This document shows, in pieces, positions 21,483 through 40,219 of a DNA stretch of 64,000 bases; the first letter of the stretch is position 1; every line of letters starts with the position of its first letter. The position numbers were made by a program, and so were the translations under genes. The notes below the pieces were generated by a model. The model worked only from the letters and a program-made list of their open reading frames with translations. It was not told the origin of the DNA and did no database searches. The DNA comes from Alphaproteobacteria bacterium (GTDB taxonomy: Bacteria > Pseudomonadota > Alphaproteobacteria > MPNO01 > UBA2964), in the NCBI GenBank assembly GCA_012103315.1, contig WLWZ01000014.1:28959-92958 (forward strand), given 5' to 3'.

Positions 21483-21490
21483 CTCAATCG

Positions 21491-22618
21491 ATGAAAATAA
21501 CCCGGATTGAAGCGGTTCCCCTCAAAATTCCTGTAAATTGTGGGGATCTGGGGGTCGATCATCCGGGTTTTAACAGCATTACCCATGTCGAGGTTGAAAC
21601 CGACACTGGTCTCATTGGGTATGGTATGACATCGATAACCCAGGCTAGGCCTGTTGCAGAGGTTGTGAATTCTGTTCTCGGTCCGGAAATTGTTGGTTTG
21701 AATGCCCTCTTCCATGAAGAGGTGTGGAATCGAATGTACTGGAAGGCCACGCCATGGGGCCAAACCGGCTATGCATCGCATGCCATTAGCGCAATAGACC
21801 TCGCTTTGTGGGACATCAAAGGCAAAGCCAGTAATCAACCGGTTTGGCAGTTACTTGGCGGTGCTCGGTCCAGCCTGCCAATCTATGCCACGTGTGGCTT
21901 TTCGTTTCTCGATGATAAAGAACTTGTCGATGTTGTGAAACGAGTAGTCAGCCAAGGGTTTAAGGGTGTCAAACTACAGGTTGGTCGTCCTGGTCTTGGC
22001 GGTGAGAACATTCTTGCCCTGAATGAATTGATTAAAAGCGACATCAAACGCGTCAGAGACATTCGCAATGCTGTAGGTCCCGAAATAGAAATTGCCGTCG
22101 ATGCGGCGTGTCGGCTTGATCTGCCGAGCGCCCGCAAACTTTGCCAAGCACTAGAAGAATTGGATATCGCGTTTTTTGAAGAGCCGATTGTTCAGAATGA
22201 TGTACGCCTTATGGCAGAACTTCGTCGCGAAACCACAATCCCTATTACGGCCGGACAAAATGAAGGATTGGCTTATCGATTTCGGGACATGCTTCTGGCT
22301 GATGCCGTCGATGTCATTCAACCAAATGCGATCATTACCGGCGGCATGACGCAATGTGTTCGGATTGCCGGCTTGGCATCTGCCTTTAATGTTCCGATTT
22401 CAAATGGCGGTGGTGCTCCACTTCATAATGCGCATTTGCAGGCAGGGTTAACCGTCGGGACAGCCGTTGAATATCAGTTCAATACCGTTGCGGCGGGTGA
22501 CGCACTTTATGATCAAAAACCGATCCAGACGAATGGCATGATGGAAATGTCTAACGAGCCTGGCTTTGGTCTAGCACCCAATTCTGATGTTCTGAAATCC
22601 ACGATAGATAGCGCCTAA
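21491..22618 (+). CDS. Enolase-superfamily enzyme (mandelate racemase/muconate lactonizing enzyme family)
   Basis: MKITRIEAVPLKIPV N-terminal capping domain and TIM-barrel metal-ligand pattern. 375 aa. Confidence 0.75.
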   Translation: MKITRIEAVPLKIPVNCGDLGVDHPGFNSITHVEVETDTGLIGYGMTSITQARPVAEVVNSVLGPEIVGLNALFHEEVWNRMYWKATPWGQTGYASHAISAIDLALWDIKGKASNQPVWQLLGGARSSLPIYATCGFSFLDDKELVDVVKRVVSQGFKGVKLQVGRPGLGGENILALNELIKSDIKRVRDIRNAVGPEIEIAVDAACRLDLPSARKLCQALEELDIAFFEEPIVQNDVRLMAELRRETTIPITAGQNEGLAYRFRDMLLADAVDVIQPNAIITGGMTQCVRIAGLASAFNVPISNGGGAPLHNAHLQAGLTVGTAVEYQFNTVAAGDALYDQKPIQTNGMMEMSNEPGFGLAPNSDVLKSTIDSA

Positions 22619-22621
22619 GCG

Positions 22622-23422
22622 TTACTCCGAGACCCCGATCAAGACGCTGTCGTGATCTGCAAGATGATGCTGTGTATAGGGCGCAATCCTTCTCAGGAAT
22701 TTGAGGCGGGCCTTTCCTTCGGGGCCCATACCAACAGGTGGCGGGATGAGCGTTAAATTACGTTCGATCATCGCCTGATAACTTTCTTTAAAAGCATCAA
22801 GGCTTTTGACCTTAAAGGCAAAATGGTCAGGCCCTGCACGGGAAATACCGGTGTTGGCGTAGTTGGTAATATCCCATGGCGCGAGGACGATCGTTATCCG
22901 ACCATCGGTTACATAGTAATTCTCGTCACCCTCTTCACGATTTGCGAGACTAAGCTGTAGGACATCGCAATAGAACTCGGCGCATTTCTCGGGGTTCAAT
23001 GTCCGTAGTGCAAAATGAGAGATAGCGCGTTCCTGCTCCCATTCACCGGCGGTATATATGCCTCTTCGATTTTTCATTTTGGCTTGGGATAGATCGAACA
23101 AATTGCCGTCCGGATCATGGGTCGTGATGCCCGCGTAAGGCCGGCTACTTGGTCGCTTGAGCCATTTAATTTTTGGATAGTTCTTTTCCATCCGCTCGAA
23201 AACGCTTTCAACGTCTTTAACCTGAACACCGAAATGATCTAGTCCGCCGGGACGTCCCGGTTTACGTGGGTTAATGTTCAATCCGACATACCCATCACCT
23301 ACTGTAATGGCGCCCTGTGAAGGACCTTCGGCGCGCTTCATGTCAAAAAGAATTTCGTAGAATTGGGCTTGGAGCGAGAAGTTGCTCGACATGATGGCGA
23401 TATGATTGATCTTAGCGAACAT
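22622..23422 (-). CDS. VOC-family protein (two-domain glyoxalase/extradiol dioxygenase fold)
   Basis: Two repeated beta-alpha-beta-beta-beta modules with His/Glu metal-ligand positions. 266 aa. Confidence 0.6.
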   Translation of the reverse strand: MFAKINHIAIMSSNFSLQAQFYEILFDMKRAEGPSQGAITVGDGYVGLNINPRKPGRPGGLDHFGVQVKDVESVFERMEKNYPKIKWLKRPSSRPYAGITTHDPDGNLFDLSQAKMKNRRGIYTAGEWEQERAISHFALRTLNPEKCAEFYCDVLQLSLANREEGDENYYVTDGRITIVLAPWDITNYANTGISRAGPDHFAFKVKSLDAFKESYQAMIERNLTLIPPPVGMGPEGKARLKFLRRIAPYTQHHLADHDSVLIGVSE

Positions 23423-23552: not shown

Positions 23553-23629
23553 TGGTGCGCCCGGCAGGATTTGAACCTGCGACCAATTGATTAAAAGTCA
23601 ACTGCTCTACCGGGCTGAGCTACGGGCGC
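23553..23629 (-). tRNA. tRNA-Lys (anticodon UUU)
   Basis: The reverse complement folds as a cloverleaf. It has a GCGCCCG/CGGGCGC acceptor stem, GGTTCAAATCC T-arm, anticodon loop CUUUUAA and an encoded CCA end. Confidence 0.8.
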
Positions 23630-23713: not shown

Positions 23714-24217
23714 CTATCTGTTCTTCACTTTTTCCTCGAGTAACTCACGGACCCGCGGAGATACAAACTGCGCGACGTCACCATTGAGGATTGCAATCTC
23801 TTTAACCAATCGTGAGGCGATAAATTGATGACGATCTGAAGCCATAAGGCAAACAGTTTCAACATCAGGCGCCAATTTGGCATTCATACTTGCCATCTGG
23901 AATTCATAATCAAAATCTGTCACGGCGCGGAGTCCCCGAATGATCACGGTAGCGCCATTGTCTTTCGCAAAATCAACCAACAGGTTGTCAAACCCTTGGA
24001 CTTCAATGCGATTGCCAACCTCACCCATGGCAGCCGCTTCGACGCGGACCATCTCGAGACGTTCTTCGAGAGAAAAAAGCGGACCCTTGCCGGCATTAAT
24101 CGCAACCCCAACGACAAGCTTATCCAACATTCTTGCCGCACGCTGGATGACATCGGTATGGCCATTGGTAATCGGGTCGAACGTACCGGGATAAATGCCA
24201 ACCAAAGGCTCAGACAT
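23714..24217 (-). CDS. coaD: Phosphopantetheine adenylyltransferase
   Basis: [14 protein letters not shown] nucleotidyltransferase motif. About 167 aa. Confidence 0.85.
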
Positions 24218-27119
24218 CATCCTCTCCATCCTCAGGAGGAGAGTCCTCTGGAACGTTTTCCTCAGTCACTTCTTCAGCTGCCGCCGTTGTCTCATTTACA
24301 GAAACTGCTTCGCCTTCGATCTCAACGACTTCGGCGCCTTGGCCCTCTTCACCATCACCATTTTCTTCGTCTTCTTCGACATCAGACAAGCGGCTGACAG
24401 AAACGACGTGTTCCTTGTCGGCAACCCGGAAGACGATAACGCCTCGGGTCGAGCGTCCGGCGATCCGAATCTCGTTGATGCCTGTGCGGATCATTTGTCC
24501 GTTATCAGTCACCAGAACGAGTTGGTCGTCATCAACGACCGGGAAGGACGCCACAACAGAGTTATCTTTACCCGTTTCGAGGTTAATATTGGCAATACCC
24601 TGCCCGCCGCGTTTGCGGACCGTGTACTCGTAAGAAGATGTTCGTTTGCCGTAACCATTAGCAGCAAGCGTCAGAATGAATTGATCCATCTCGACCATTT
24701 CGGCATAGCGCTCATCGGAAAGGCTAATCGCTTCGCTATTTTCGTTGTTTTCAGCGCCGTTGCCATTGGTTTCGGCGCCATCGTCGTTCTCGATGCGTTC
24801 GGCCCGACGGCGGCGAAGATAGGCGTCACGTTCTTCAATCGAGAAGGCTGCGTGGTTTAAGGTCGACATCGACATGACATTGTCGCCCGGTGCGAGACGG
24901 ATGCCGCGAACGCCGCTTGAAGCTCGGCCGGCAAACAGCCGTACATCAGTTGACGGGAAACGGATGCACTTTCCTTTTGCGGTCGATAGGAGAATATCTT
25001 GAACCGCCTCACAGACTGAGACACCAACTAAGCGGTCGCCATCGTTCAGCTTCATGGCGATCTTGCCATTGGCCATGACGTTAACGAAGTCGCTGAGCTT
25101 ATTCCGTCTTACACCGCCGCTCGCTGTCGCGAACATGACATCGAGCTCTTCACAGGCGGACTCATCCTCCGGTAAGGGCATCAATGTTGTGATCGTTTCG
25201 CCGTCATCAAGAGGCAGTAGATTGATCAAGGCCTTGCCTCGGGCCTGCGGTGTTCCAAGTGGCACCTTATAGACCTTCAGCTTGTAAACCATGCCACGGG
25301 AGGAAAAGAACAGAACTGGCGTATGGGTGTTCACGACATAAACGCTTGAGACGAAGTCCTCGTCCCGGGTGGACATGCCGGAGCGGCCTTTGCCGCCACG
25401 GCGTTGAGCGCGATAGGTCGAAACGGGAACGCGCTTGATATAGCCGCCATGGGTAACCGTGACGACCATATCCTCGCGTTGAATCAGGTCTTCGATATCG
25501 GCTTCAAATTCTGAATCATCTATTGTCGTCCGGCGCGGGTCTGCAAATTTCTCTTTAACCTCTAGAACTTCTTCTTTGAGGATTGCTCTGACTTTCTCAC
25601 GAGAGGCCAGAATGCCAAGATATTCGGTGATCTCGGCAGCGAGACCTTCAAGTTCTTCCGCAATCTTGCCGCGTTCAAGACCTGTAAGGCGTTGTAGGCG
25701 TAAATCAAGGATGGCGCGCGCTTGAACCTCGGACAGCTGATATTTGCCATCAACGACCATGCGGCCGGGTTCATCGATTAATTCGATTAGTGGTGCGACA
25801 TCACCAGCCGGCCAAGGGCTTTTCATGAGCCCTTCACGAGCTGTTACCGGATCCGGCGCAGCCCGGATAAGTTCAATCACCTTATCGATATTGGCGACGG
25901 CAATTACCAGCCCGACCAAGACGTGCGCCCGGTCCCTCGCCTTACCCAGTTCAAATATCGTCCGGCGAGTAATGACTTCTTCGCGGAACGCAATAAAGGC
26001 TGCCAGAACATCGCGAACAGTCATCTGTTCTGGACGTCCGCCATTCAACGCCAGCATGTTAATGCCAAAGCTGGATTGCAGCGGTGTATAACGGAACAGT
26101 TGGTTGAGAACCACTTCCGCCATGGAATCTCGTTTGATTTCGACGACAACCCGCACACCATCGCGATCAGACTCGTCACGGATATCGGAGATGCCTTCAA
26201 TCCGCTCGTCGCGCACCATTTCGGCGATACGCTCAATCATCCGGGCTTTATTTACTTGGTACGGAATCTCGGTGACGACAATCGCTTCGCGATCCTTGCG
26301 GATTTCTTCAACGTGGGTACGCCCACGGATAACCACGGAGCCACGCCCGGTATGATAGGCCTGATTGATCCCGCTGCGGCCCATGATCAAGCCGCCGGTT
26401 GGGAAATCCGGTCCTGGAATGATTTCAGTCAGTTCGTTGATCGTTAGGTCTGGATTGTCCAAAAGCGCGCATGTGCCGTCGATTACCTCGCCCAAATTAT
26501 GGGGTGGGATATTTGTCGCCATGCCAACGGCGATACCACCGGCGCCATTGACCAACAGGTTCGGAAAACGTGCAGGAAGAACTTTGGGTTCGTGGATGGT
26601 CTCGTCGTAGTTTGCCTGAAAATCAACGGTTTCACGGTCGATGTCCTGCAGTAGCTCTTCTGCTGATCGGTCCAGCCGCACTTCGGTGTAGCGCATCGCC
26701 GCAGCGCGGTCGCCGTCCATTGAGCCGAAATTACCCTGACCATCGACCAGCATAAGCCGCATCGAGAAATCCTGGGCCATGCGTACCATAGCGTCGTAAA
26801 TAGCGGTATCGCCATGGGGATGGTATTTACCCATGACATCACCGACGATGCGGGCAGATTTACGATAGGCCTTGTTCCAGTCGTACCCTTCCTCCTTCAT
26901 CGCGTAGAGAATACGACGATGAACCGGTTTCAAACCGTCGCGAACATCCGGCAGGGCTCGGCTGACAATGACGCTCATCGCATAATCGAGATACGAGGAT
27001 TTCATCTCGTCTTCGATTGAAATCGGCGTAATGTCGAATTCAGGTGGCTCTGGAGGTAGGGTTTCGGAGGTCAAATTATTATTCGCCGAGCGATTGTTTC
27101 TACAAAACAATCGGCTCAA
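24210..27119 (-). CDS. gyrA: DNA gyrase subunit A
   Basis: [28 protein letters not shown], active-site Tyr region and an acidic C-terminal tail. The N-terminus is extended about 20 aa beyond the usual start, so the start is uncertain. Confidence 0.93.
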
Positions 27120-27289
27120 AAAAGACGACTGTTTAACTAAGGGAGATTACCAGAAACAAGAGAATCGGACAACCAAACGCCCGCTCAACGACGACAGTTA
27201 TTTCTTTTATAAAACAAATACTTATGAGTTATTTTTAGAGGTGAACTAAATCGCGGGAAAGCCCAGTTGATTTTGGTTCAATGTAAGCT

Positions 27290-27760
27290 CTAAAAGGGGA
27301 TTTCGTCGTCGAGATCACCACCACCACCGCCGCTGATTGCATCGGGTGCTGCCGTCGGCGCCGCCATTTCACTCGACCCACCATAGTCGCCGCCACCGGC
27401 AGAGTCGCCTCGGCCACCGAGCATCGTCAGTTCACCGCGGAAGCGTTGCAGAACAACTTCGGTGGAGTATTTTTCTTGACCAGACTGATCGGTCCATTTC
27501 CGAGTTTGGAGTTGTCCTTCGATATAGACTGTGGAGCCCTTACGTAAATATTTTTGGGCAATTTCAGCGAGTTTCTCATTGAAGATGACAACGCGGTGCC
27601 ACTCGGTCCGTTCGCGTCGTTCACCTGAGTTGCGGTCTCGCCAGCTTTCGGACGTCGCGATTGACATATTCACCACAGGATTTCCATCCTGCATGTTCCG
27701 GGTTTCTGGGTCGCGCCCAAGATTGCCGATCAAGATTACCTTATTGACACTTCCAGCCAT
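27290..27760 (-). CDS. ssb: Single-stranded DNA-binding protein
   Basis: OB-fold N-terminus ([15 protein letters not shown]), Gly-rich linker and DLDDEIPF acidic tail. Confidence 0.9.
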
Positions 27761-27912
27761 GACGTCCTCTTTTCCATCCCGAGATATGAGCAATCATCAT
27801 AGCGGAATCACTCTGCATACACACCCATCCCGTTCAGGAATCGGTGGATATCTTGCATGAGAGAAAGACTTGGGAGACAGTGCCCTAAGCTGATGAAAAA
27901 AGGACGTTCGTT

Positions 27913-29010
27913 ATGAGTAAAGTCGGTGTCATCGGGGGTGTTTGCACGACGCATGCTCCCCAACTTTGGACTCTCCCCGAATCGGAAGACCCCAATGTGG
28001 TCAACCGGGTGAAAGATCTCCTTACCGGCGTTGGTGACAAACTCAAGGCTATGAAGCCCGATATTTGCATTGTCATCGCCAATGATCATGCGCATCAGTT
28101 TCTACTGCACTGCACAGCCAGCTTCACGATGCATATTGGCGGTGTAGCGGAAGGGAGTTTTGCCGGCCGTGATTATGAATATCCAGTCGCCAGTCAGGCA
28201 TCCCTGGACCTCCTCCGCTATGCCCAACGTAATAACGTTGATCCCGCGTTCACCAGTAACGCCAAGATCGATTATGCCTTTGGCATTCCGCTGGATTTCA
28301 CCGGCATAGATAACATCCCGATCCTACCAATTTTCGTGAATGCCTACGTCCCACCACAGCCTTCTATAGAAAGATGTTTTGCTTTTGGTCGTATCCTTGG
28401 AGACGGGATTAAGGCCTTGGGCCTACGCGCCGTCGTCGTCTGTAGTGGTGGTCTTTCACATTACCCTGGCACCGAACGCTATATGGACCCGGGCCCTGAC
28501 GAAGAATTTGATCGTCATTTCATGGGCATGATGGAACGAGGTGAGCTCCGCTACTTACTGGCCCTCGATGAAAAGAAACTCGATGAAACAGGTAATATTG
28601 AGCTGCGCTGCTGGGGTGTTGCGGCGGGTATGATTGGAGAACGCCCGCCTGACGTCACTAATTTTGAACCAACCTGGCATCATAATTACGGAACCGTGGC
28701 CTGGACAAACGAGCCTGAAGAAGAAACTTTCGAGCCGCATTACCCCCACATTCATCCGGAGCGAGTGGTATTGTCGGAGACGCTGCATAATCTTGCCGGA
28801 GATCGAAATGAACGGGAAAGATACTTGGCCGACCCAACAGCCTACGCAGCAGCAATTGAAGGCCTCAGCGAAGAAGAACGCAAAGCGCTCGTTGCGTTGG
28901 ATCAGTCTGAAATGATTGCGATGGGCATGCACCCGTTCGTACCACACAGCTTTAGACGGGTTCTGGAGCGCGCGGGTATCCTCGAGGCTGCAGCACCACC
29001 CAAGAAATAA
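27913..29010 (+). CDS. Class III extradiol ring-cleavage dioxygenase (LigB family) with a fused LigA-like C-terminal domain
   Basis: LigB-type N-terminal domain (VIANDHAH, His ligands). The C-terminal region (GLSEEERKALVALD) resembles the LigA/GalA C-terminal domain. Confidence 0.65.
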   Translation: MSKVGVIGGVCTTHAPQLWTLPESEDPNVVNRVKDLLTGVGDKLKAMKPDICIVIANDHAHQFLLHCTASFTMHIGGVAEGSFAGRDYEYPVASQASLDLLRYAQRNNVDPAFTSNAKIDYAFGIPLDFTGIDNIPILPIFVNAYVPPQPSIERCFAFGRILGDGIKALGLRAVVVCSGGLSHYPGTERYMDPGPDEEFDRHFMGMMERGELRYLLALDEKKLDETGNIELRCWGVAAGMIGERPPDVTNFEPTWHHNYGTVAWTNEPEEETFEPHYPHIHPERVVLSETLHNLAGDRNERERYLADPTAYAAAIEGLSEEERKALVALDQSEMIAMGMHPFVPHSFRRVLERAGILEAAAPPKK

Positions 29011-29013
29011 ACG

Positions 29014-29736
29014 CTAGCTACGCCCTTCCGCCTTATCGAGCTTACGGTTGTGATAGCGCCACAGGTTCGTGACGATACGCGTATAGAGGATAGCTTCATC
29101 CTTCATGCCGGTGTTGACCTTCCATTGCCAGTCGGCCCCGGTTGCCATCATCGCAAGCTGCTCTTTACAGGCCTGTTCAATCGCAATGCCCATGATGACG
29201 CAATGCTCGATTGAGGTACCACAGAACGTCACGCCATGATTGCGCAAAAGAACCGCCCAGGCGTCGCCAAGCGCTTCTGCCATACCATTGGCGTCCTCCA
29301 TATTACGGACTAAGGCTAGGGTTTTCTCAAAGACCTGAACCTTACCACCAAAGTAAGACCCATTATGGCCAATACCGACGAGCTTTTCATTCGTCGCGGA
29401 AAGCAGAATACAATTCATTGGATGGGTATGACCCACGCAATCGACATCAGGGCGTGCCAGGAGGACGGCTGCGTGGATCGGCCATTCGGAGTGGCGATGC
29501 CCTTCGCTGCCTTCCAGGACTTTGCCTTCCCAGTCAATGAGATGCAGATCAGATGCCTCTATTTCATCGAGGCCGATTTCCTGACATTTCATCCAGAGGC
29601 CGCGCCCTTCGGGGTCGCGCCAGGACAAATGGCCAAGCGTCGCATCGAGATGGCCGTTGGCAGCGATAATGCGATAGCCGCGCGCGAGATTTTCTAAATT
29701 GGTCGCGATATCGATCGTTTCATTATTTGTCATGGT
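29014..29736 (-). CDS. Class II aldolase/adducin-family protein
   Basis: GHTHPMNCILLSATNEKLVGIGHNGSYFGG metal-binding His motif of the fuculose-phosphate aldolase family. The start is taken at MTNNETID. Confidence 0.7.
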   Translation of the reverse strand, partial: TMTNNETIDIATNLENLARGYRIIAANGHLDATLGHLSWRDPEGRGLWMKCQEIGLDEIEASDLHLIDWEGKVLEGSEGHRHSEWPIHAAVLLARPDVDCVGHTHPMNCILLSATNEKLVGIGHNGSYFGGKVQVFEKTLALVRNMEDANGMAEALGDAWAVLLRNHGVTFCGTSIEHCVIMGIAIEQACKEQLAMMATGADWQWKVNTGMKDEAILYTRIVTNLWRYHNRKLDKAEGRS

Positions 29737-29981
29737 GAGCCCCTGTTGCGAGTTTTGTGGAGGCAAGGTATCGCAAAGCGGACGACGCAACAATGAAACG
29801 CCGTTCATAACCAATCATGAAGTAAGAGTGGTCGACGGCACCTGGCCATCAAGGGGGGGAAGCGGAACAGCCTAAAAACTAAAGACACCACCGACCACAA
29901 GGTGATGATGGCAAAAACGTTTTAAGGCAGCGTTGCCAAAGACGGTTAACATTCGTTAGCTATAATCGTTCTGCTCAAACC

Positions 29982-30935
29982 CTAGTAACCACCCAGAAAA
30001 TTCTTCGGCTCGCCCTTAAGAAAAGCGTCGATGGCCTCAATGTAACCGTTGAAGTAGCTACCGTAATTGTCTTGTTCAACATAGCCGAGATGCGGCGTAA
30101 TCACGGTATTGTCGAGACCGCGGAACGGATGGTCTGCCGGGAGGGGCTCAACACTGAAGACGTCAATTCCGGCGCCCCCGATTGCTTTTCGTTTTAGACA
30201 GTCTACCAAAGCATCCTCGTCAATAATTGGGCCTCGCGCTGTGTTGACGATATAGGCGGTTGATTTCATGCGGGCGAGATCATCTGCGCCAATGAGTCCC
30301 CTTGTTCGATCACTCAGGATCAGGTGGATAGTCAGATAATCAGACTGGACCATCAGATCGTCTTTGCTGACCAGCTGCACGCCGAATTCATCGCAGCGTT
30401 CCTGTGTCAGGTTTTGACTCCAGGCGATGACGTTCATGTCAAACGCCTTGGCAATAACAGCCATCCTGCTGCCAAGATTACCTAACCCGGCAATCCCGAG
30501 TGTTTTTCCGATAAGCCCTTCGCCGACAGTTTGCTGCCAGCCCCCTGCTCGAATATTACTATCCTCAGCTGGAATTTTCCGTGCGAGGCCGAGGATAAGT
30601 CCCCAGGCAAGCTCGGCGGTTGGTTTGCCGACGCTCTTGCTACCACAGACGATGACGTCATTATCTTTGGCCGCATCCGTGTCGATGCCGCGATTACGCA
30701 TGCCGCTTGAAATAATGAGTTTCAGGTTAGGGAGTTTCTCGATCAATGAGCGTGGGAATGGTGTCCGTTCGCGCATTGCGCAGATGATTTCATAATCTTG
30801 TAAACGGGCTGCCACCGCATCCTCGTCATGGATATGATCTGAATACACATCGACCGCAGCTTGGCTGGTAACCGATGACCAGTCAGCACTCTCCAAGGCA
30901 GTGTTTTGATAATCATCTAAAATCGCTACGCGCAT
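29982..30935 (-). CDS. D-isomer-specific 2-hydroxyacid dehydrogenase (NAD-binding)
   Basis: GIAGLGNLGSRMA Rossmann motif and catalytic R/E/H pattern. The start is assigned at MRVAILDDYQ (30935). Confidence 0.75.
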   Translation of the reverse strand: MRVAILDDYQNTALESADWSSVTSQAAVDVYSDHIHDEDAVAARLQDYEIICAMRERTPFPRSLIEKLPNLKLIISSGMRNRGIDTDAAKDNDVIVCGSKSVGKPTAELAWGLILGLARKIPAEDSNIRAGGWQQTVGEGLIGKTLGIAGLGNLGSRMAVIAKAFDMNVIAWSQNLTQERCDEFGVQLVSKDDLMVQSDYLTIHLILSDRTRGLIGADDLARMKSTAYIVNTARGPIIDEDALVDCLKRKAIGGAGIDVFSVEPLPADHPFRGLDNTVITPHLGYVEQDNYGSYFNGYIEAIDAFLKGEPKNFLGGY

Positions 30936-31018
30936 CACTCGTCTCTTGTTGAAATTTGCGTCATGATGGTTGTCAAAGGGCATGCTGACAATGCTGATTT
31001 GCAGATTGGGAGAACGAA

Positions 31019-31768
31019 ATGTCATCAATGGTAGGAAAAGTTGTTTTGATAACGGGTGCTGGTTCTGGGTTGGGACAAAGTCATGCTGCCCTGCTCTCCG
31101 AATATGGGGCCGATATCATCGTTCAGGACATCAATCCAGATGGTGCAGCCAAAACCGCTGAGATGGTTTCGGGAAATGGCACGAGAGTTCATGTGATGAT
31201 CGGCGATGTTCGAGATTCAGATGGCTTCGCTAATCTCGCAAAAGCAGCACAATCTGACCTCGGCCCGGTTGATGTGTTGGTCAATAACGCAGGGATCAGT
31301 AGCCGCGGTCGTATGTTTGAAGAAATTGACGATGAGATTATGGCAGAGATGTTTGATATCAACGTCAAAGGCGCCTACGTCGCAACGCGGGCGGTTTTAG
31401 CAGGTATGAAAGAACGCCAGGCCGGTCGGATCATTAACACGTCTTCAGTCTTCGGAATGGCGGGCACAACACAGGGGTCGCATTACTGTGGTGCCAAAGC
31501 GGCTCTTATTGGTTTGACCAAAGCCTGGGCAAAGGAATTTGCCCCCTGGCACATCCTGGTGAATGCCGTAGCCCCGGGCTTTATCCCGACGCCTATGACC
31601 AATCGACCGGGGAAAGACGAGCTTCGTGAGGCGCGGATTGCCAGTGTGCCGTTGGGACATGAAGGCTTACCAGACAATATTTCACACGCCGTCGCCTATT
31701 TCGCCTCGGAAGGCAGCAAATATGTCACCGGACAGGTTCTTAGCCCGAATGGTGGCGTTGTTATTTAA
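31019..31768 (+). CDS. SDR-family oxidoreductase
   Basis: TGAGSGLG cofactor motif, NNAG and the S...YxxxK catalytic triad pattern. 249 aa. Confidence 0.8.
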   Translation: MSSMVGKVVLITGAGSGLGQSHAALLSEYGADIIVQDINPDGAAKTAEMVSGNGTRVHVMIGDVRDSDGFANLAKAAQSDLGPVDVLVNNAGISSRGRMFEEIDDEIMAEMFDINVKGAYVATRAVLAGMKERQAGRIINTSSVFGMAGTTQGSHYCGAKAALIGLTKAWAKEFAPWHILVNAVAPGFIPTPMTNRPGKDELREARIASVPLGHEGLPDNISHAVAYFASEGSKYVTGQVLSPNGGVVI

Positions 31769-31782
31769 CAGAGGAGCAAGAC

Positions 31783-32709
31783 ATGATTATCGATACGCAT
31801 ATTCACGTTTGGAGCTACCCTGCCCTCGCTGATGCACGAGACCATATAAAATCAACCAAAGATCTGGTGAGTTTTCGTAGCCGCTGCCCGGACCTTTATG
31901 ATCGGACGTTAACGGAAGATCCGATTGATAATTCGGATCAGTTGATCGCCGACATGGATGAGTTTGGGATTGACCGGGCTTTCGTACAGGCACGCCCCGG
32001 ATCGGTCACCAACGATCAGGTCGCATTGTCTGTTGAACGACACCCTGACCGCCTCTATGGCCTGATGCGAATTGGTCACGATCAGGAAGCCGCGTATGAA
32101 TATTTGGAAGACCCGGCTCCCGTCCGTGACGGCGCGGCGGATGAGGTCGCCCATTGTATCGAAGATTTGGGTATGATCGGTCTTGGTGAAATTTTTATCC
32201 GTGCGATGACGGCGGAGGTCGATCCCGAAAAAATCGCCAAAGACCTCGTCCCAATGATGGATGCCGTCAATCACTATAAGGTACCGGTGCAGTTTCCAAC
32301 GGCATGGTCACAGTTTCCCGGCGGATTGTTTTATGGTCATCCGGTATGGGCTGATGAGGTCGCCGCTCGTTATCCGGATGTTCCGATCATCCTTACCAAG
32401 ATGGGACGAAGCCTGATTACTTATTTTGAGCCCTGTATGGCCGTGGGAATGCGCAACGAGAATGTTTATTTCGATGTGGTTGGAACGAATGCTGATCATT
32501 TAAGACAAGCACTCGATCTATTGGGGTCTGAGCGGATTATGTTTGGCTCGGATTGGTCTGCGACCTGGAGCTGTGTTCGCGAACCCGCCCCGCTCTACAC
32601 CATGCGGCTTAAAGTCCTGGAAGATGCAGGGTGTACGGAGGAAGAACGCGAGAACATTCTGTGGCGTAACGCGGCGCGGTTGTTCAAGCTAAACGATATT
32701 GCGAATTAG
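31783..32709 (+). CDS. Amidohydrolase-2 family metal-dependent hydrolase (LigI/LigJ/ACMSD-like TIM barrel)
   Basis: MIIDTHIHVW N-terminal HxH metal motif and conserved downstream His/Asp. 308 aa. Confidence 0.7.
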   Translation: MIIDTHIHVWSYPALADARDHIKSTKDLVSFRSRCPDLYDRTLTEDPIDNSDQLIADMDEFGIDRAFVQARPGSVTNDQVALSVERHPDRLYGLMRIGHDQEAAYEYLEDPAPVRDGAADEVAHCIEDLGMIGLGEIFIRAMTAEVDPEKIAKDLVPMMDAVNHYKVPVQFPTAWSQFPGGLFYGHPVWADEVAARYPDVPIILTKMGRSLITYFEPCMAVGMRNENVYFDVVGTNADHLRQALDLLGSERIMFGSDWSATWSCVREPAPLYTMRLKVLEDAGCTEEERENILWRNAARLFKLNDIAN

Positions 32710-32711
32710 GT

Positions 32712-33287
32712 TTATTGCTTGCCTAAGGTAGCGAGGACGCGCTCAACATCGGGACGTTGCCGGTAATTCTCTGTCGAAAAACGATGGCTGATTTTGCCAT
32801 CAGCATTAACGACAAAGATTGCCGGTAAGGCGATGCCATACCAGGCACTGGATTTAGACACGCCCGGTTTGATTAAACCAAAAGCACCAATGATATCGGC
32901 CTTGGGATCCGCCAGCAGCGTATAGGAAATACCTTCATCGGCGGAGAATTGCTTGTGGACGTCGACGCCGTCTTTCGTAACAAGTACGATGTCATAACCG
33001 AGCTTGGTGAATTCCTGATGTTTTGCATTCCAGGCGACCGCCTGGCGTTTGCAGTGAGGTCACCAATCCAATGACCGTGAAAACATCACGATCAAGCCCC
33101 GCTTTCTGGCGAGTGATTTGAAATCCCGATACTGACTGTTCTGATCCTGTGCTTTGAGGGAATGCGGTAAAGCGGTCCCGACTTTAGGACCGACCTTAAT
33201 CTCATCAACGGCAAAACTTGGTGTCACTTGACCCAATGAAAAGGTCAGAGCCAAGGCCGCCAGCAGAATTTTAAAGGTTCGGTTCAT
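32712..33287 (-). CDS. Secreted thioredoxin-fold redoxin (TlpA/ResA-like) with an in-frame TGA at the first Cys of WCxxC: candidate selenoprotein (W-U-P-H-C) or pseudogene
   Basis: Signal peptide ...FSRSLDW, then TGA at 33060-33062, then the same frame stays open for 115 more codons (PHCKRQAVAWNAKHQEF ... ATLGKQ) to TAA at 32712-32714. A hairpin sits downstream of the TGA. Confidence 0.5.
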
Positions 33288-33492
33288 TGTGGTCTCAGTC
33301 CAGTATCTAATGGCTGATATAGTCGCGGTTGTTACAGCCGAAAGTCAATTCTTAATACGGATTTGCGCTTCAGATGAGCGTTCACATTTTCGTATGGTTG
33401 GATATTTCGGTTGCTGCTACTAGTTCGTTTGAAGACACCTACCCGGTACCCTATAACTAAAGCGATATGAAATATCCTCTCCGCAAGATCGA

Positions 33493-36348
33493 TTGAGCAT
33501 GGCTGGCAAAATTGTTGTTCGTGGTGCCCGCGAACATAATCTGAATAATGTTGATATTGCGCTGCCGCGTGATTCACTGGTCGTGATGACTGGTGTGTCG
33601 GGTTCCGGCAAGTCGTCACTGGCCTTCGATACAATTTATGCCGAGGGGCAACGTCGGTATGTCGAAAGCCTCTCAGCCTATGCACGGCAGTTTCTGGAAA
33701 TGATGCAGAAGCCCGATGTCGATTCCATCGAAGGCCTCTCACCGGCAATTTCCATCGAACAAAAGACCACGTCGCGAAATCCCCGTTCGACAGTCGGCAC
33801 GGTAACTGAGATTTACGATTATCTCCGACTGTTGTTCGCGCGGGCGGGTATCCCCTACTCACCAGCTACTGGCTTGCCGATTGAAAGCCAGACTGTTTCC
33901 CAGATGGTCGATCGTGTCCTGGAGATGGAAGAAGGCACCCGGCTCTATTTGTTGGCGCCAATTGTGCGAGGTCGAAAGGGAGAGTACCGGAAGGAGCTGG
34001 CAGAACTTCAAAAGAAAGGCTTCCAACGCGTTAAAATCGATGGCGAGCATTATCAGATCGAGGAAGCGCCGGCGCTAAAAAAGACCTACAAGCACGATAT
34101 TGATGTGGTCGTTGATCGGCTGGTCGTCCGACCTGACTTGGGTAATCGTCTAGCGGATTCCCTGGAGACCGCTCTTGAGCTGGCTGACGGGCTTGCGATA
34201 ACCGAAAATGCGAAGGACGGTGATCGGGTAATCTTCTCTGCCAAGTTCGCTTGTCCGGTATCGGGCTTTACGATTGATGAGATCGAACCGCGATTGTTTT
34301 CGTTCAACGCTCCGGCTGGCGCGTGCCCAGCCTGTGATGGTCTGGGCACATCGTTGTATTTCGATCCAGAACTGATCGTTCCTGATACCAGTAAGAGCCT
34401 GAAAGATGACGCGATTGCCCCCTGGGCCAATTCTAAGTCACCCTATTACGCGCAGACGCTCGATTCTCTCGCCCGGCACTACAAGGTTTCGGTCAACACC
34501 CCGTTCAAGGAGTTGAAAAAGGCCGCCCAGGAAGGGATCCTCTGGGGATCTGGCGATAAATCCGTAAAGATGACTTACGCCGACGATGGTCGGGAATATT
34601 CAATTGATCGTCCCTTTGAAGGTGTTATCCCGAATATGCAGCGCCGGTTTCGAGAAACCGATAGCTCTTGGGTGCGGGATGATCTCGGGCGTTTTCAGAG
34701 TAATACTGCCTGTGAGACTTGTGGCGGCATGCGACTACGGCCAGAGGCGCTCGCGGTTAAACTAGATGGCCTGCATATCAGCGAGATCACAGAGTTTTCA
34801 ATTTTGGCTGCGCGCGATTGGTTTGCGGCCCTACCGAAATCGCTCACCGATAAACAGGCTGAGATCGCCAGCCGTATTCTCAAGGAAATTAATGAACGGC
34901 TGAGCTTTCTGGTCGATGTTGGACTGGAATATCTCACCCTTTCACGGTCTTCCGGAACATTGTCGGGTGGTGAAAGCCAGCGCATTCGCCTCGCTTCTCA
35001 GATCGGTTCGGGGCTGACGGGTGTTCTGTACGTCCTGGATGAGCCGTCGATTGGCCTGCATCAACGCGACAATGCGCGGCTTTTGGAAACACTGCGGCGT
35101 TTGCGGGACCTCGGAAACACCGTTCTCGTCGTTGAACATGATGAAGATGCTATCCGGTCAGCTGACTATCTCGTTGATCTCGGTCCCGGTGCCGGTATTC
35201 ATGGTGGTAAAATCGTCGCGCATGGCCCTCCAGCCAAGGTGATGAAGGCCAAGAACAGCATCACGGCACAATATTTGACGGGTGTTCGTTGCGTTGAAAT
35301 TCCTGCGGAACGACGATCAGGCAAAAAGGGACAATCTCTGACTATCGAGGGGGCTGCCGCTAATAATCTACAAGGCGTCAATGCTGCGATACCGCTCGGG
35401 ACAATGACGGCGATTACCGGTGTTTCGGGCAGTGGCAAGTCGACGTTGATCATCGACACGCTCTATAAGGCAATTTCACGCCGTTTGCATGGGGCCCGCG
35501 CGGTCCCAGGTGCTCATGATGATATCAAAGGTCTCGAATTTATCGATAAAGTTGTTGAGATCGATCAATCGCCGATCGGTAGAACGCCGCGCTCTAATCC
35601 CGCGACCTACACTGGAACCTTCACGCCAATCCGTGAATGGTTCGCAGGGTTACCCGAAGCCAAAGCGCGTGGCTACAAACCGGGACGGTTCTCATTTAAC
35701 GTCAAAGGCGGTCGTTGCGAAGCCTGTCAGGGTGACGGCGTCATCAAAATTGAGATGCATTTCCTGCCCGACGTCTATGTCGAATGTGATGTTTGCAAAG
35801 GCAGCAGATACAACCGAGAAACACTTGAAATAGAGTTTAGAAACAAATCCATAGCAGATGTTCTTAACCTGACAGTTGATGAAGGGTGTGAGTTCTTTAA
35901 AGCTGTTCCGTCGATCCGAGAGAAACTGGAAATGTTGCAACGGGTAGGGCTTGGTTATATCCATATAGGCCAGCAAGCCACGACCCTTTCAGGCGGCGAA
36001 GCCCAGCGCGTCAAACTCTCCAAAGAATTGGCGCGACGCTCGACCGGCAAAACCATCTATATTCTGGATGAACCGACCACCGGTCTGCATTTCGAGGATG
36101 TCCGTAAGCTTCTGGAAGTCCTGCATGCCCTTGTCGAACAGGGAAACACCGTCGTTGTCATTGAACATAACCTCGAGGTTATCAAAACCGCAGATTGGAT
36201 CATTGATTTGGGCCCCGACGGCGGTAATAAGGGCGGTCGTCTCATTGCCAGCGGGACACCTGAAGACGTCGCGCAGACCAAGGGTAGCTATACAGGTGAG
36301 TATCTCGCCCCCTACCTCGGCAAACGAAAGCTTAAGAAAAGCGCCTAA
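33493..36348 (+). CDS. uvrA: Excinuclease ABC subunit A
   Basis: Two ABC ATPase modules (GVSGSGKSS and GVSGSGKST), zinc-finger Cys clusters and LSGGE signatures. 951 aa. Confidence 0.95.
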
Positions 36349-37085
36349 ACTGTGGTTTCAAAGACCCGAGCGACGAACTCTGGATAGGTTTTGGCAATCT
36401 CGGGGCTTATTTGGGTTCGCAGAAGTCTAAGCCGTTGATCTGTTGGGCCTAGAGTTTCTGGAACAGTCTCAGGAATATCAAAATCAAATCCCGTATTGTC
36501 CTGAATTTCCTCAACAGTATGTCCCGGATGCACAGAAGTTAGCTGAAATCGCTTCCGTTCCCGGTTAAACATCATCAGGCATAGCTCTGTGACTAAGGCA
36601 TGCGGCCCGCCAGGACGATAGACGCCGTCTTCGCTCGTGCCCGGTGCGCTGATGAAGTCAACTTCAGGAACAAATACCCGCCTGGTATGTTCTGGTCGGA
36701 ACAAGATCACCTTTGGTACGACGAAATACATGTAGGCTGAGCCAAAAGACCCTGGAAACCGACGGTCTGTCTTGGGATAGTCCCCAGTCCCGACGAGATT
36801 TATGTTGGCCTGTCCGTCAATCTGGACACCCCCAAGGAAGAACGTATCGATCCGTCCCTGCCCTGAACAATCAAACAATTCCCGTCCACCATCGGTGAAC
36901 GGGTTATTAGCATCACCGCCAATCATCGACAGTCGGAGGCCATCAATCTGATTTTTGGTCTCCTCCCGCACGAGTAAAGCAGCGGACCCCGGAAATGGCG
37001 AAGCCATACCAACCGCTACGTGACGCGATGTTTCGAGCAAAGACGCGATGGTACAGATCAGAAACTCGTCCTGATTATAGTTCAT
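36345..37085 (-). CDS. CoA-transferase subunit B (family I, glutaconate/3-oxoacid CoA-transferase beta-like)
   Basis: Family I CoA-transferase beta subunit pattern. A start at MNYNQDEF gives an ATGA overlap with the subunit A stop. Confidence 0.6.
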
Positions 37086-37903
37086 CGCGGCGCTCCGTAG
37101 ATTTTCAGCCATTCCTCAAAGCCAACCTGAGAGCTAGCTTGCTCGACATAATCCATGATTGCGGCAGTATCGGCTGGGTACCGCCCGGCTAGACCTAGAG
37201 GCCAACAGCCTTTCTCTGCTTCGGCGATAGCGCCAACATACATATCGGGCAGCGTTCCCGCCGCTGTTAGGTCGTTTTCAAGCAGATTGTCATCCTGAAT
37301 CTCTTCGACCGTGACGAATGTCGTTTTAGCGGCGTGCGCCATGGTCATCAGTTCACGCCGTTTCCCGATCCAGACATTCCCGTCACGATCCGCGAGAGGC
37401 GCGTGGATCAATGCAATGTCGGGCTGAATGGCTGGCAGGAGAACGATTGGGCCGTCGTTTTTATCAAAAGGATCGACGATAACCTGCCAGTCAGCTCTGT
37501 TTTTAAGGACATCGCTGCCAATCAGTCCCCGGAGAGGCATAAAAGGGACACCCTTTTCCGAGGCCTGTAGAGCGGTGTGGATGGCAGGACAAGTGGAGTC
37601 CAACATGGCGATTGTGTTGGTCTGGACCGCCTCTGAGAATCTCGGCGCAAGTCCTGCTTCGCCCATAGTGATGGCCGCGGCTTCAAGGGTTTTGACGCAT
37701 CCCGCTCCGATGAGCAGATCACCAGCAATTCCACCAATCGGCGCGAATAACAGATGGAGGTCCTTTACGCCACGCCGAATTAGCGCCATGACGGCGGCGA
37801 CCGGGACATTGCTATAATCCGGAGGCAGAACGATAAGAGCTTCGTCTGCAACCTGCTGCGCCAGATCATCGAGAGTTGTGAACAGTGCCATGACTACTTT
37901 CAA
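37082..37903 (-). CDS. CoA-transferase subunit A (family I, GctA-like)
   Basis: 273 aa alpha-subunit-like sequence lying directly upstream of subunit B and translationally coupled to it. Confidence 0.6.
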   Translation of the reverse strand: MKVVMALFTTLDDLAQQVADEALIVLPPDYSNVPVAAVMALIRRGVKDLHLLFAPIGGIAGDLLIGAGCVKTLEAAAITMGEAGLAPRFSEAVQTNTIAMLDSTCPAIHTALQASEKGVPFMPLRGLIGSDVLKNRADWQVIVDPFDKNDGPIVLLPAIQPDIALIHAPLADRDGNVWIGKRRELMTMAHAAKTTFVTVEEIQDDNLLENDLTAAGTLPDMYVGAIAEAEKGCWPLGLAGRYPADTAAIMDYVEQASSQVGFEEWLKIYGAPR

Positions 37904-40137: not shown

Positions 40138-40219
40138 GGGGCTACTGTCTCGTTTTTGACGCTATAATAGACATGTTCTTTTAACCCAATTTCGGAATGT
40201 CCCGAACGGAAGTTTTTCT

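What the first reader, a model, noticed from the sequence alone, without database searches (positions are those of the whole stretch)
27794..33492. Six-gene catabolic cassette inserted between the normally adjacent divergent ssb and uvrA genes
ssb (minus, 27290-27760) and uvrA (plus, 33493-36348) are normally immediate divergent neighbours. Here about 5.7 kb lies between them. It encodes a fused LigB/LigA-like extradiol dioxygenase, a class II aldolase, a 2-hydroxyacid dehydrogenase, an SDR, an amidohydrolase-2 (LigI/LigJ-like) hydrolase and the TGA-containing redoxin. The gene content recalls gallate/protocatechuate 4,5-cleavage pathways (ring-cleavage dioxygenase, pyrone or hydratase-type amidohydrolase, aldolase) but uses different dehydrogenases. 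I found no obvious GTTC-N7-GTTC LexA box upstream of either ssb or uvrA.
Basis: partly seen in the sequence, partly recalled or inferred. Interest (0 to 1): 0.55.

Follow-up and report, generated by a model that had tools for sequence, protein, structure and literature searches.

The report
Old gene block between ssb and uvrA
Six accessory enzyme genes do sit between the DNA-repair genes ssb and uvrA, but they are an old, vertically inherited and stepwise-built block of one marine alphaproteobacterial lineage, probably a partial aromatic ring-cleavage module, and not a recent insertion or a known pathway.

Summary
About 5.7 kb with six genes lies between divergent ssb and uvrA, and all six family assignments are confirmed.

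The "inserted cassette" reading is only half right.
- The block is absent from 80 other alphaproteobacterial uvrA loci.
- It occupies the same site in every close relative found (UvrA 78-94% identical).
- Those relatives form one clade on a UvrA tree.
- There is no GC or codon shift, no flanking repeat, no adjacent tRNA and no integrase.
- The content changes by sub-lineage. The core is the 2-hydroxyacid dehydrogenase/amidohydrolase pair. The dioxygenase plus aldolase, the SDR (or a VOC protein instead) and the selenocysteine redoxin are additions.
- The ssb-uvrA gap holds unrelated genes in 20 of 55 other loci.

It is not the protocatechuate 4,5-cleavage or gallate pathway, and no protein reaches a curated ortholog cut-off.
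- The dioxygenase has an intact LigB-type active site.
- The "aldolase" is of the FucA/adducin fold, not the LigK fold.
- The amidohydrolase resembles LigJ, LigY and ACMSD only at fold level.

My best functional guess (about 0.4) is extradiol cleavage of a carboxylated dihydroxy- or aminohydroxy-aromatic, followed by decarboxylation and redox steps. Interest is modest.

The parts
27290..27760 (-). ssb, left boundary (housekeeping gene)
   Evidence: Pfam SSB, 134 bits. The ATG at 27760 aligns with the start in 11 relatives.
27796..27801 (-). conserved -10-like TATGAT upstream of ssb, in the 152-bp ssb-dioxygenase spacer
   Evidence: TATGAT or TATCAT is conserved in an alignment of 12 loci, about 36 nt before the ATG. 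A promoter role is inferred, not shown.
27913..29010 (+). class III (LigB-type) extradiol dioxygenase with a fused LigA-like C-terminal domain, 365 aa
   Evidence: Pfam LigB plus LigA. The best NCBIfam hit is MhpB at 81 bits against a cut-off of 291. PDB matches: MhpB 8k04, DesB, LigB, APD. His14, His59, Glu230 and His183 are conserved, and Tyr121 is nearly invariant.
29014..29733 (-). class II aldolase/adducin-fold protein, 239 aa, tail-to-tail with the dioxygenase (3-bp gap)
   Evidence: Pfam Aldolase_II, 128 bits. NCBIfam PRK06208 scores 119 bits (cut-off 255) and PhtC decarboxylase 94 bits (cut-off 200). PDB matches: 3ocr, 4xxf, 2z7b. Orthologues of at least 66% identity form only 12 clusters.
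29982..30935 (-). D-isomer-specific 2-hydroxyacid dehydrogenase, 317 aa; the most constant member of the block
   Evidence: Pfam 2-Hacid_dh_C, 195 bits. No NCBIfam equivalog is reached. It is present in every clade variant whose sequence reaches its position, including the minimal L093.
31019..31768 (+). short-chain dehydrogenase/reductase, 249 aa, 14 bp upstream of the amidohydrolase
   Evidence: Pfam adh_short, 187 bits. In the other sub-clade a 412-aa VOC protein replaces it.
31783..32709 (+). Amidohydro_2 protein, 308 aa, of a very conserved uncharacterised family
   Evidence: Pfam, 89 bits. The family is 57-98% identical across phyla. Profile against PDB: gamma-resorcylate decarboxylase 8.5e-11, LigJ 1.3e-3. 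Model pLDDT is 88.8. Foldseek top hits are LigJ, LigY, IDCase and ACMSD at TM 0.54-0.66.
32712..33287 (-). secreted redoxin (AhpC/TSA-like) with in-frame TGA at 33060-33062; candidate selenoprotein
   Evidence: Translation. The TGA is kept at the same position in 6 homologous loci, and a paralogue has Cys there.
33024..33053 (-). SECIS-like hairpin (GGUC loop) just downstream of the UGA
   Evidence: The 66-nt stretch from 33065 to 33000 folds at -22.4 kcal/mol, z -3.1, with 1 of 200 shuffles as good. There is no Rfam match.
33429..33457 (+). promoter-like TTGAAG-17 nt-TATAAC upstream of uvrA
   Evidence: The element is conserved in the window, L098, L099 and L103, and partly in L107 and L125. 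Function is inferred.
33493..36348 (+). uvrA, right boundary (probable true start at ATG 33499)
   Evidence: ORF. Relatives are 68-94% identical. Start alignment.

Best explanation
Evolution (shown). The ssb-uvrA divergent spacer is a place where Alphaproteobacteria repeatedly gain genes. In one marine lineage it was filled early and then passed down vertically. I infer the order of assembly from the variants:
- The minimal form is a divergent 2-hydroxyacid dehydrogenase/amidohydrolase pair next to uvrA (as in L093).
- The LigB/LigA dioxygenase and the class II aldolase-fold gene were added on the ssb side.
- Either an SDR (the window's sub-clade) or a VOC extradiol-dioxygenase-like protein (the sister sub-clade) sits in front of the amidohydrolase.
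- The selenocysteine redoxin is found only in part of the SDR-carrying lineage.
- ssb and uvrA each keep their own promoter-like element.

Function (inferred). The five enzymes form a partial peripheral module for a carboxylated dihydroxy- or aminohydroxy-aromatic acid.
- The dioxygenase opens the ring next to the hydroxyls using Fe(II).
- The class II aldolase-fold protein and/or the amidohydrolase remove a carboxyl group from, or hydrate, the carboxylated ring-fission product. DhbB does this in Pseudomonas reinekei; OpaD, NbaD and PraH do it elsewhere.
- The two NAD(P) dehydrogenases then oxidise or reduce the aldehyde or oxo-acid product.

Uptake, regulation and the lower pathway must be encoded elsewhere in the genome.
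For: Evolution:
- The same site and gene order are seen in the window, L103, L111 and L098. Variants are L100, L107, L083, L086, L104, L105, L178, L179 and L093.
- On a UvrA neighbour-joining tree the 12 block-bearing loci form one clade. It has SDR and VOC sub-clades, L093 joins at the base, and the 30 block-free loci all fall outside.
- Protein identities fall together with the housekeeping genes. In L103: GyrA 91, UvrA 91, dioxygenase 87, aldolase 82, dehydrogenase 79, amidohydrolase 91. In L083: 81, 83, 79, 68, 71, 89.
- Gene GC is 0.50-0.54 against 0.49-0.55 in flanking genes, and codon distance is 0.72-0.89 against 0.54-1.17.
- Other lineages hold unrelated genes in the gap: pentapeptide-repeat proteins, MFS transporters, acyltransferase, AAA ATPases, a dicarboxylate symporter and PAP2.

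Function:
- The Fe triad and the catalytic His are intact. Tyr121 matches Tyr129 of aminophenol dioxygenase and Tyr125 of LigB-type homoprotocatechuate dioxygenase.
- The amidohydrolase is linked to ring-cleavage enzymes three independent times: a LigB-type gene in the same gene string in L094, a VOC protein with catechol 2,3-dioxygenase-like domains 9-15 bp upstream in L083 and L086, and this block.
- It is followed by a TctC carboxylate-binding protein gene in 41 of 54 distant loci.
- Dioxygenase homologues elsewhere are followed directly by an aldehyde dehydrogenase (L091) or by RidA-family genes (L089).
- There are published precedents for class II aldolase-fold and amidohydrolase decarboxylases acting on carboxylated ring-fission products (PMC6362003).
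Against: - No gene reaches any curated ortholog threshold, so no substrate can be named.
- The block has at least four transcription units with alternating strands, and no regulator or transporter.
- Dioxygenase homologues at 59-75% identity sit in unrelated contexts without the other genes.
- L093 lacks the dioxygenase and aldolase, L178 lacks the aldolase and L179 lacks the amidohydrolase. The genes are therefore not strictly interdependent.
- The amidohydrolase family has no invariant His at the ends of predicted strands 5 and 6, where ACMSD/NbaD has His177 and His228.
- No aldehyde dehydrogenase or lower meta-pathway gene is present.
- The UvrA tree is neighbour-joining without bootstrap support.
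Confidence: 0.55

Rival explanations
1. There is no shared pathway. The spacer is simply a permissive site where unrelated accessory enzyme genes piled up, and each works in a different process.
For: The genes alternate in strand with separate spacers. Content is swapped between sub-lineages. Dioxygenase and amidohydrolase homologues elsewhere have different neighbours. The redoxin, GNAT, Exo_endo_phos, TrkHA, DnaJ and PEP-CTERM genes at the same site are clearly unrelated to catabolism. Other lineages fill the gap with miscellaneous genes.
Against: The dioxygenase, aldolase, dehydrogenase and amidohydrolase are kept together in both sub-clades, including lineages whose UvrA is only 78% identical to the window's. 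The amidohydrolase is repeatedly coupled to ring-cleavage-type enzymes. All five enzyme types fit meta-cleavage chemistry.
Confidence: 0.33
2. It is a variant protocatechuate 4,5-cleavage or gallate pathway: dioxygenase, LigI/LigJ-type hydrolase and aldolase, with different dehydrogenases.
For: The dioxygenase has a fused LigB/LigA architecture colinear with gallate dioxygenase DesB. LigJ is the top Foldseek hit of the amidohydrolase model.
Against: NCBIfam gallate dioxygenase scores 53.8 bits (cut-off 412) and protocatechuate 4,5-dioxygenase 34 bits (cut-off 837). LigJ matches only at E 1.3e-3 over the last 80 residues, and LigI does not match at all. The aldolase is PF00596, not the LigK/GalC fold. 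No GFO/IDH/MocA-type LigC or LigU is present. Tyr121 replaces the His127 (LigB) / His124 (DesB) that contacts the substrate hydroxyl.
Confidence: 0.06
3. It is a recently acquired genomic island or mobile cassette.
For: The block is absent from 80 other alphaproteobacterial uvrA loci. In another organism a dioxygenase homologue lies between copies of a 595-aa DDE transposase gene (L089/L090).
Against: There is no GC, GC3 or codon shift. There are no flanking repeats. There is no adjacent tRNA, and none of the genes between ssb and uvrA has an integrase or transposase domain. The same site and order occur in a monophyletic clade, with divergence that tracks GyrA and UvrA.
Confidence: 0.03
4. 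It is a sugar-acid or lactone catabolic set: SDR sugar dehydrogenase, amidohydrolase-2 lactonase, 2-oxo-acid reductase and class II aldolase.
For: The only NCBIfam hit of the amidohydrolase is L-fucono-1,5-lactonase, at 24 bits against a cut-off of 400. An MR_MLE acid-sugar-dehydratase-like gene lies at 21491-22618.
Against: In the profile search against PDB, lactonases reach only E 0.09-0.13, against 8.5e-11 for aromatic decarboxylases. Foldseek top hits are LigJ, LigY and decarboxylases. The dioxygenase has no role in such a pathway. The aldolase lacks FucA's phosphate-binding Asn29, Thr43 and Ser71 (the FucA sequence was recalled from memory).
Confidence: 0.04

Closest known systems
2,3-dihydroxybenzoate meta-cleavage modules (DhbA/DhbB of Pseudomonas reinekei MT1; OpaC/OpaD of Pseudomonas sp. 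PTH10; PMC6362003)
   Same: An extradiol dioxygenase is followed by decarboxylation of a carboxylated ring-fission product. The decarboxylase is either a class II aldolase-fold protein (DhbB) or an amidohydrolase-superfamily protein (OpaD, NbaD, PraH). Both protein types occur in this block.
   Different: DhbA and OpaC are type I (VOC) dioxygenases, whereas this one is a type III LigB enzyme. There is no semialdehyde dehydrogenase and no lower pathway here. Direct similarity to DhbB and OpaD could not be measured.
Protocatechuate 4,5-cleavage (LigAB-C-I-U-J-K) and gallate (GalA/DesB) pathways
   Same: The dioxygenase is class III with a LigA-like domain fused to the LigB domain, as in DesB and GalA. 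An Amidohydro_2 protein has LigJ as its closest fold.
   Different: All ortholog cut-offs are missed. Tyr stands in place of His127 (LigB) / His124 (DesB). The aldolase has a different fold from LigK. The dehydrogenases belong to families other than LigC's. There is no LigI or LigU.
MhpB (2,3-dihydroxyphenylpropionate 1,2-dioxygenase, PDB 8k04)
   Same: It is the best sequence match of the dioxygenase's catalytic domain (profile E 6.8e-28 over residues 11-201). JGI annotates homologues under this name.
   Different: The score is 81 bits against a cut-off of 291. MhpB has His115 where this family has Tyr121. MhpB has no LigA-like tail and sits in the mhp operon.
2-aminophenol 1,6-dioxygenase (APD, 3VSH) and LigB-type homoprotocatechuate 2,3-dioxygenase (DHPAO)
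   Same: Both have the second-sphere Tyr plus His pair (APD Tyr129/His195; DHPAO Tyr125/His186), as does this family (Tyr121/His183).
   Different: Overall similarity is weak (profile E 5e-5 to APD beta). APD is a two-subunit enzyme. The Tyr occurs in both catechol and aminophenol enzymes, so it does not predict the substrate.
ACMSD / gamma-resorcylate decarboxylase / LigJ / LigY clade of Amidohydro_2
   Same: TIM-barrel fold, N-terminal HxH, and a strand-8 Asp in a conserved DW motif. These are the nearest sequence-profile and fold neighbours.
   Different: Identity is at most 18%. There is no invariant His after strands 5 and 6. Instead the family has its own invariant residues: His99-Asp100-Gln101, Glu136, Trp175, Lys206, Arg209 and His239.

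Membership tests
Class III (LigB-superfamily) extradiol dioxygenase | 2-His-1-carboxylate Fe(II) triad (LigB His12, His61, Glu242) | tested here: met
   His14, His59 and Glu230 align to the triad. His14 and Glu230 are invariant, and His59 is conserved in all 16 family members aligned.
Class III (LigB-superfamily) extradiol dioxygenase | Second-sphere catalytic pair (LigB His195 plus His127, or Tyr as in APD and DHPAO) | tested here: met
   His183 is invariant. Tyr121 aligns with MhpB His115, LigB His127 and APD Tyr129. The roles come from PMC11926856 and PMC5291488.
Class III (LigB-superfamily) extradiol dioxygenase | Ring-cleavage activity | not testable with these tools
   This needs enzyme assays.
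Protocatechuate 4,5-cleavage / gallate pathway | Orthologous LigAB, GalA or DesB dioxygenase | tested here: not met
   NCBIfam gallate dioxygenase scores 53.8 bits (cut-off 412) and protocatechuate 4,5-dioxygenase alpha/beta 34.1 bits (cut-off 837).
Protocatechuate 4,5-cleavage / gallate pathway | LigI lactonase and/or LigJ hydratase | tested here: inconclusive
   LigJ is the top Foldseek hit (TM 0.62-0.66, 14-17% identity). The sequence profile match is only E 1.3e-3 over 80 residues, and LigI is not matched.
Protocatechuate 4,5-cleavage / gallate pathway | LigK/GalC-type 4-carboxy-4-hydroxy-2-oxoadipate aldolase and LigC-type dehydrogenase | tested here: not met
   The aldolase is PF00596. 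The dehydrogenases are PF02826 and PF00106. That LigK has an RraA-like fold and LigC is of the GFO/IDH/MocA type is from my own knowledge.
ACMSD-type amidohydrolase decarboxylases (NbaD, OpaD, PraH) | Zn ligands His9, His11, His177 and Asp294, plus His228 | tested here: inconclusive
   His6, His8 and Asp257 are invariant. No invariant His follows predicted strands 169-172 and 202-205. The ligand list is from PMC6362003.
Class II aldolase-fold decarboxylases (DhbB, PhtC, HMPDdc) | FucA-type metal site (three His plus Glu) without the sugar-phosphate pocket | tested here: met
   The equivalents of Glu73, His92, His94 and His155 are kept, while those of Asn29, Thr43 and Ser71 are replaced (the FucA sequence and residue roles are from memory).
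Class II aldolase-fold decarboxylases (DhbB, PhtC, HMPDdc) | Ortholog-level similarity to a characterised decarboxylase | tested here: not met
   PhtC scores 93.8 bits against a cut-off of 200. HMPDdc (2z7b) matches at E 1.3e-14. No DhbB sequence was available.
Genomic island / mobile cassette | Compositional shift, mobility genes, tRNA or direct-repeat borders, patchy distribution | tested here: not met
   GC and codon usage are flat. There are no border repeats. The only tRNA is at 23553-23629, beyond gyrA. The block-bearing loci form one clade.
Bacterial selenoprotein (the redoxin) | In-frame UGA aligned with Cys in homologues, plus a downstream SECIS hairpin | tested here: met
   The UGA is conserved in 6 loci, and a paralogue in L110 has Cys there. 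The hairpin has a GGUC loop and z -3.1. The selA, selB, selC and selD genes were not looked for outside the window.

The most novel reading that the evidence does not exclude
The dioxygenase (Tyr121 type), the aldolase-fold protein, the 2-hydroxyacid dehydrogenase and the amidohydrolase may together encode an undescribed meta-cleavage route for a carboxylated hydroxy- or aminohydroxy-aromatic that is common in seawater. In this reading the amidohydrolase family would carry a new activity within the ACMSD/LigJ clade. That family is at least 57% identical from Alphaproteobacteria to Chloroflexi, is paired with a TctC binding protein in 41 of 54 distant loci, and lacks the strand-5 and strand-6 His ligands.
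Probability: 0.2. Interest if true: 0.5.

Novelty: new member of a known kind. Interest (0 to 1): 0.3.

Why it matters
- It shows that a block which looks like an insertion can be old synteny within a lineage. The ssb-uvrA spacer is a recurrent gene-gain site in Alphaproteobacteria.
- It flags two widespread, uncharacterised enzyme families as targets for assays. One is a LigB/LigA dioxygenase with more than 1,100 database relatives. The other is an unusually conserved amidohydrolase.
- If the two work together, they would add a route for aromatic acid turnover in marine bacteria.
- As it stands, this is ordinary genome plasticity plus unassigned enzymes.

Tried and rejected
- LexA boxes. None lies near ssb or uvrA in the window or in any clade member. 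A perfect GTTC-N7-GTTC box is present in 14 of 30 loci with a short ssb-uvrA gap. The nearest block-free relatives with a short gap (L005, L008, L010, L011, L014) lack it too. The block therefore cannot be blamed for its absence.
- Tyr121 as a marker of aminophenol substrates. I rejected this because catechol-cleaving LigB-type homoprotocatechuate dioxygenases also carry the Tyr (PMC5291488).
- Rfam search of 27000-34000 at E up to 1 found nothing.
- The repeat, tRNA, promoter and terminator scans gave nothing above chance.
They were recovered through the dioxygenase and amidohydrolase homologues instead.
- My greedy ORF clustering of amidohydrolase neighbours produced spurious antisense ORFs in GC-rich contigs. 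I used only the TctC cluster, which is cross-checked against the Pfam calls.
I did not repeat it, since the sequence alignments already answered the question.
- The 1.84-billion-representative protein search was not used.

Full report
**1. The observation**

- gyrA 24210-27119 (-)
- ssb 27290-27760 (-)
- LigB+LigA dioxygenase 27913-29010 (+)
- class II aldolase/adducin-fold protein 29014-29733 (-)
- D-2-hydroxyacid dehydrogenase 29982-30935 (-)
- SDR 31019-31768 (+)
- Amidohydro_2 protein 31783-32709 (+)
- signal-peptide redoxin 32712-33287 (-), interrupted by TGA at 33060-33062
- uvrA 33493-36348 (+)

The longest ORFs of the aldolase and the dehydrogenase overshoot. Relatives use the 239-aa and 317-aa forms. 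About 5.73 kb separates the ssb and uvrA starts.

**2. Is ssb-uvrA adjacency the norm?**

A scan of one genome per GTDB species with UvrA returned 80 alphaproteobacterial loci, at most 78% identical. ssb lies divergently upstream within 10 kb in 55 of them. The gap is at most 420 bp in 31 and at least 1 kb in 20. None has a relative of any of the six genes near uvrA.

The longer gaps in other lineages hold unrelated genes:
- pentapeptide-repeat proteins
- MFS transporters
- a ferredoxin reductase
- a solute-binding protein
- an acyltransferase-3/SGNH protein
- AAA ATPases
- a dicarboxylate symporter
- a PAP2 protein
- proteins with no Pfam match

Adjacency is therefore common, but the spacer is a recurrent gene-gain site.

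**3. Insertion or ancestral synteny?**

The real close relatives were found through homologues of the dioxygenase and the amidohydrolase.
- Full block, same order and site: L103 (GyrA 91%, UvrA 91%), L111, L098. L099 carries the right half, and L081 and L082 the left half.
- No redoxin: L100, L107.
- Sister form (L083, L086): ssb | dioxygenase, GNAT (only a fragment in L086), aldolase, dehydrogenase | 412-aa VOC, amidohydrolase, Exo_endo_phos (L083 only) | uvrA. L104 and L105 show the dehydrogenase | VOC-amidohydrolase | uvrA part of this form.
- L179 has the VOC gene followed by TrkH and TrkA, with no amidohydrolase.
- L178 lacks the aldolase and has extra genes, giving a spacer of about 9.8 kb.
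- L093 has only dehydrogenase | amidohydrolase, a TauD gene, then uvrA.

On a UvrA neighbour-joining tree the 12 block-bearing loci form one clade. It splits into an SDR sub-clade and a VOC sub-clade. L093 joins at the base, and 30 block-free loci lie outside (no bootstrap).

Identities of the block proteins fall in step with GyrA and UvrA. GC, GC3 and codon usage are the same as in the flanks. There are no bordering repeats and no adjacent tRNA. None of the genes between ssb and uvrA has an integrase or transposase domain.

The block is therefore lineage-specific but old. It was inherited vertically and assembled and remodelled in steps. An ancient gain is supported.

**4. What the proteins are**

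No protein reaches any NCBIfam equivalog cut-off.

Dioxygenase.
- The best match is MhpB: 81 bits against a cut-off of 291, and profile E 6.8e-28 to PDB 8k04.
- It aligns colinearly with the fused gallate dioxygenase DesB, including the LigA-like tail.
- His14, His59 and Glu230 match the LigB iron triad, and His183 matches His195.
- The position of LigB His127 / MhpB His115 is Tyr121 in all 16 family members aligned.
- The same Tyr occurs in aminophenol dioxygenase (Tyr129, and PMC5291488) and in LigB-type homoprotocatechuate dioxygenases (Tyr125). It is a known variant and does not reveal the substrate.
- The family is large (1,120 hits). At 59-75% identity its members sit in unrelated neighbourhoods. 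One is followed directly by an aldehyde dehydrogenase (L091). Another sits among RidA-family genes and between DDE transposase copies (L089).

Aldolase-fold protein.
- It is PF00596, nearest to PRK06208, the PhtC decarboxylase model (94 bits against 200), and PDB 3ocr, 4xxf and 2z7b.
- It keeps the FucA metal ligands and Glu but not the phosphate-pocket residues (FucA sequence from memory).
- Orthologues of at least 66% identity form only 12 clusters. The next relatives are at most 49% identical.

Amidohydrolase.
- This family is remarkably conserved: 57-63% identical in Betaproteobacteria, Deltaproteobacteria and Chloroflexi. Within the clade it is 89-97% identical where UvrA is 78-94%.
- Profile against PDB: gamma-resorcylate decarboxylase 8.5e-11, other aromatic decarboxylases and LigJ about 1e-3, and lactonases at 0.09 or worse.
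- A confident model (pLDDT 88.8) is closest to LigJ, LigY, salicylate decarboxylase, IDCase and ACMSD, at TM 0.54-0.66 and 13-18% identity.
- His6, His8 and Asp257 are invariant. No invariant His follows predicted strands 5 and 6.
- In distant taxa the gene is followed by a TctC-family binding protein in 41 of 54 loci.
- In L094 it sits in a GntR, LigB-type dioxygenase, amidohydrolase, TctC, TctA string.

VOC protein. The protein that replaces the SDR in the sister sub-clade has weak catechol 2,3-dioxygenase and HpaD similarity.

**5. How it most likely works**

Published precedent (PMC6362003) shows two ways in which carboxylated extradiol ring-fission products are decarboxylated. One uses a class II aldolase-fold enzyme (DhbB). 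The other uses amidohydrolase-superfamily enzymes (OpaD, NbaD/ACMSD, PraH).

Three observations fit this precedent: the intact dioxygenase active site, the repeated pairing of the amidohydrolase with ring-cleavage-type enzymes, and the carboxylate-transporter link.

The best-supported model is a partial peripheral module. It would carry out extradiol cleavage of a carboxylated dihydroxy- or aminohydroxy-aromatic, then decarboxylation or hydration of the product, then NAD(P)-dependent redox steps. Only the family assignments and the conserved residues are shown. The substrate, the order of steps and the functional coupling are inferred. I put this at about 0.4.

The main rival, at about 0.33, is that the genes are functionally unrelated occupants of a permissive site. 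The evidence for that rival is:
- alternating strands
- no regulator or transporter in the block
- lineage-specific loss of the dioxygenase and aldolase, of the aldolase alone, or of the amidohydrolase
- clearly unrelated co-occupants: redoxin, GNAT, TrkHA, DnaJ-like and PEP-CTERM genes

**6. Comparison with known systems**

This is not the protocatechuate 4,5-cleavage or gallate pathway.
- There is no LigC-, LigI-, LigU- or LigK-type gene.
- The ortholog thresholds are missed.
- The aldolase has a different fold.

It works most like the 2,3-dihydroxybenzoate or aminophenol-type meta-cleavage front ends, but with a class III dioxygenase. It is not a mobile island.

**7. Side issues**

- LexA. 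No GTTC-N7-GTTC box lies near ssb or uvrA in the window or in any clade member. Perfect boxes occur in 14 of 30 short-gap loci, but not in the nearest block-free relatives with a short gap. ssb and uvrA each keep a conserved promoter-like element.
- Redoxin. The TGA is conserved in six loci, a paralogue has Cys there, and a hairpin with a GGUC loop follows. This supports a real selenoprotein.

**8. Verdict**

The finding is ordinary genome plasticity plus uncharacterised members of known enzyme superfamilies. Interest is 0.3.

Noticed in passing
window 32712-33287 (-), TGA at 33060-33062, hairpin 33024-33053: The redoxin looks like a true selenoprotein. The in-frame TGA (W-U-P-x-C) is kept in six homologous loci at 44-85% identity. 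A second copy in L110 has Cys at that position. A hairpin with a GGUC loop follows the UGA (z -3.1). There is no Rfam match.
   Followed up: partly
window 31783-32709 (+); loci L094-L097, L113-L177: The amidohydrolase family is unusually conserved, at least 57% identical across phyla and more conserved than UvrA within the clade. Outside the marine clade a TctC-family binding-protein gene follows it in 41 of 54 loci. No characterised member was found.
   Followed up: partly
L089 and L090, 1746-3533, 12121-13908 and 20818 onward: In another organism a 70%-identical dioxygenase homologue lies between copies of a 595-aa DDE_Tnp_1 transposase gene. It sits among RidA-family, luciferase-like monooxygenase and cupin genes, in a composite-transposon-like arrangement.
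   Followed up: no
loci L001-L080, ssb-uvrA spacers: A perfect GTTC-N7-GTTC LexA-type box is present in 14 of 30 short ssb-uvrA spacers. It is absent from the marine relatives with a short gap that are nearest to the window (L005, L008, L010, L011, L014). This suggests a different or lost SOS operator in that part of the tree.
   Followed up: partly
window 19968-23422: A UbiD-family decarboxylase (288 bits, above the subfamily cut-off), an MR_MLE acid-sugar-dehydratase-like gene and a VOC gene lie just beyond coaD-gyrA. The same trio is conserved in L081. This is another accessory catabolic patch in the same core region.
   Followed up: no
window 36345-37903 (-): Two overlapping CoA-transferase subunit genes lie immediately downstream of uvrA, and the stop of uvrA overlaps the stop of the first. 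One or both are conserved next to uvrA in L099, L100 and L125. No NCBIfam family is matched.
   Followed up: no
window 33493-33501: The TTG at 33493 is probably not the uvrA start. Relatives begin at the ATG equivalent to 33499 (ATGGCTGG).
   Followed up: partly
window 39325-42345: Two squalene/phytoene-synthase-family genes and an amine-oxidase-family gene resemble an hpnC/hpnD/hpnE-like set for squalene synthesis.
   Followed up: no
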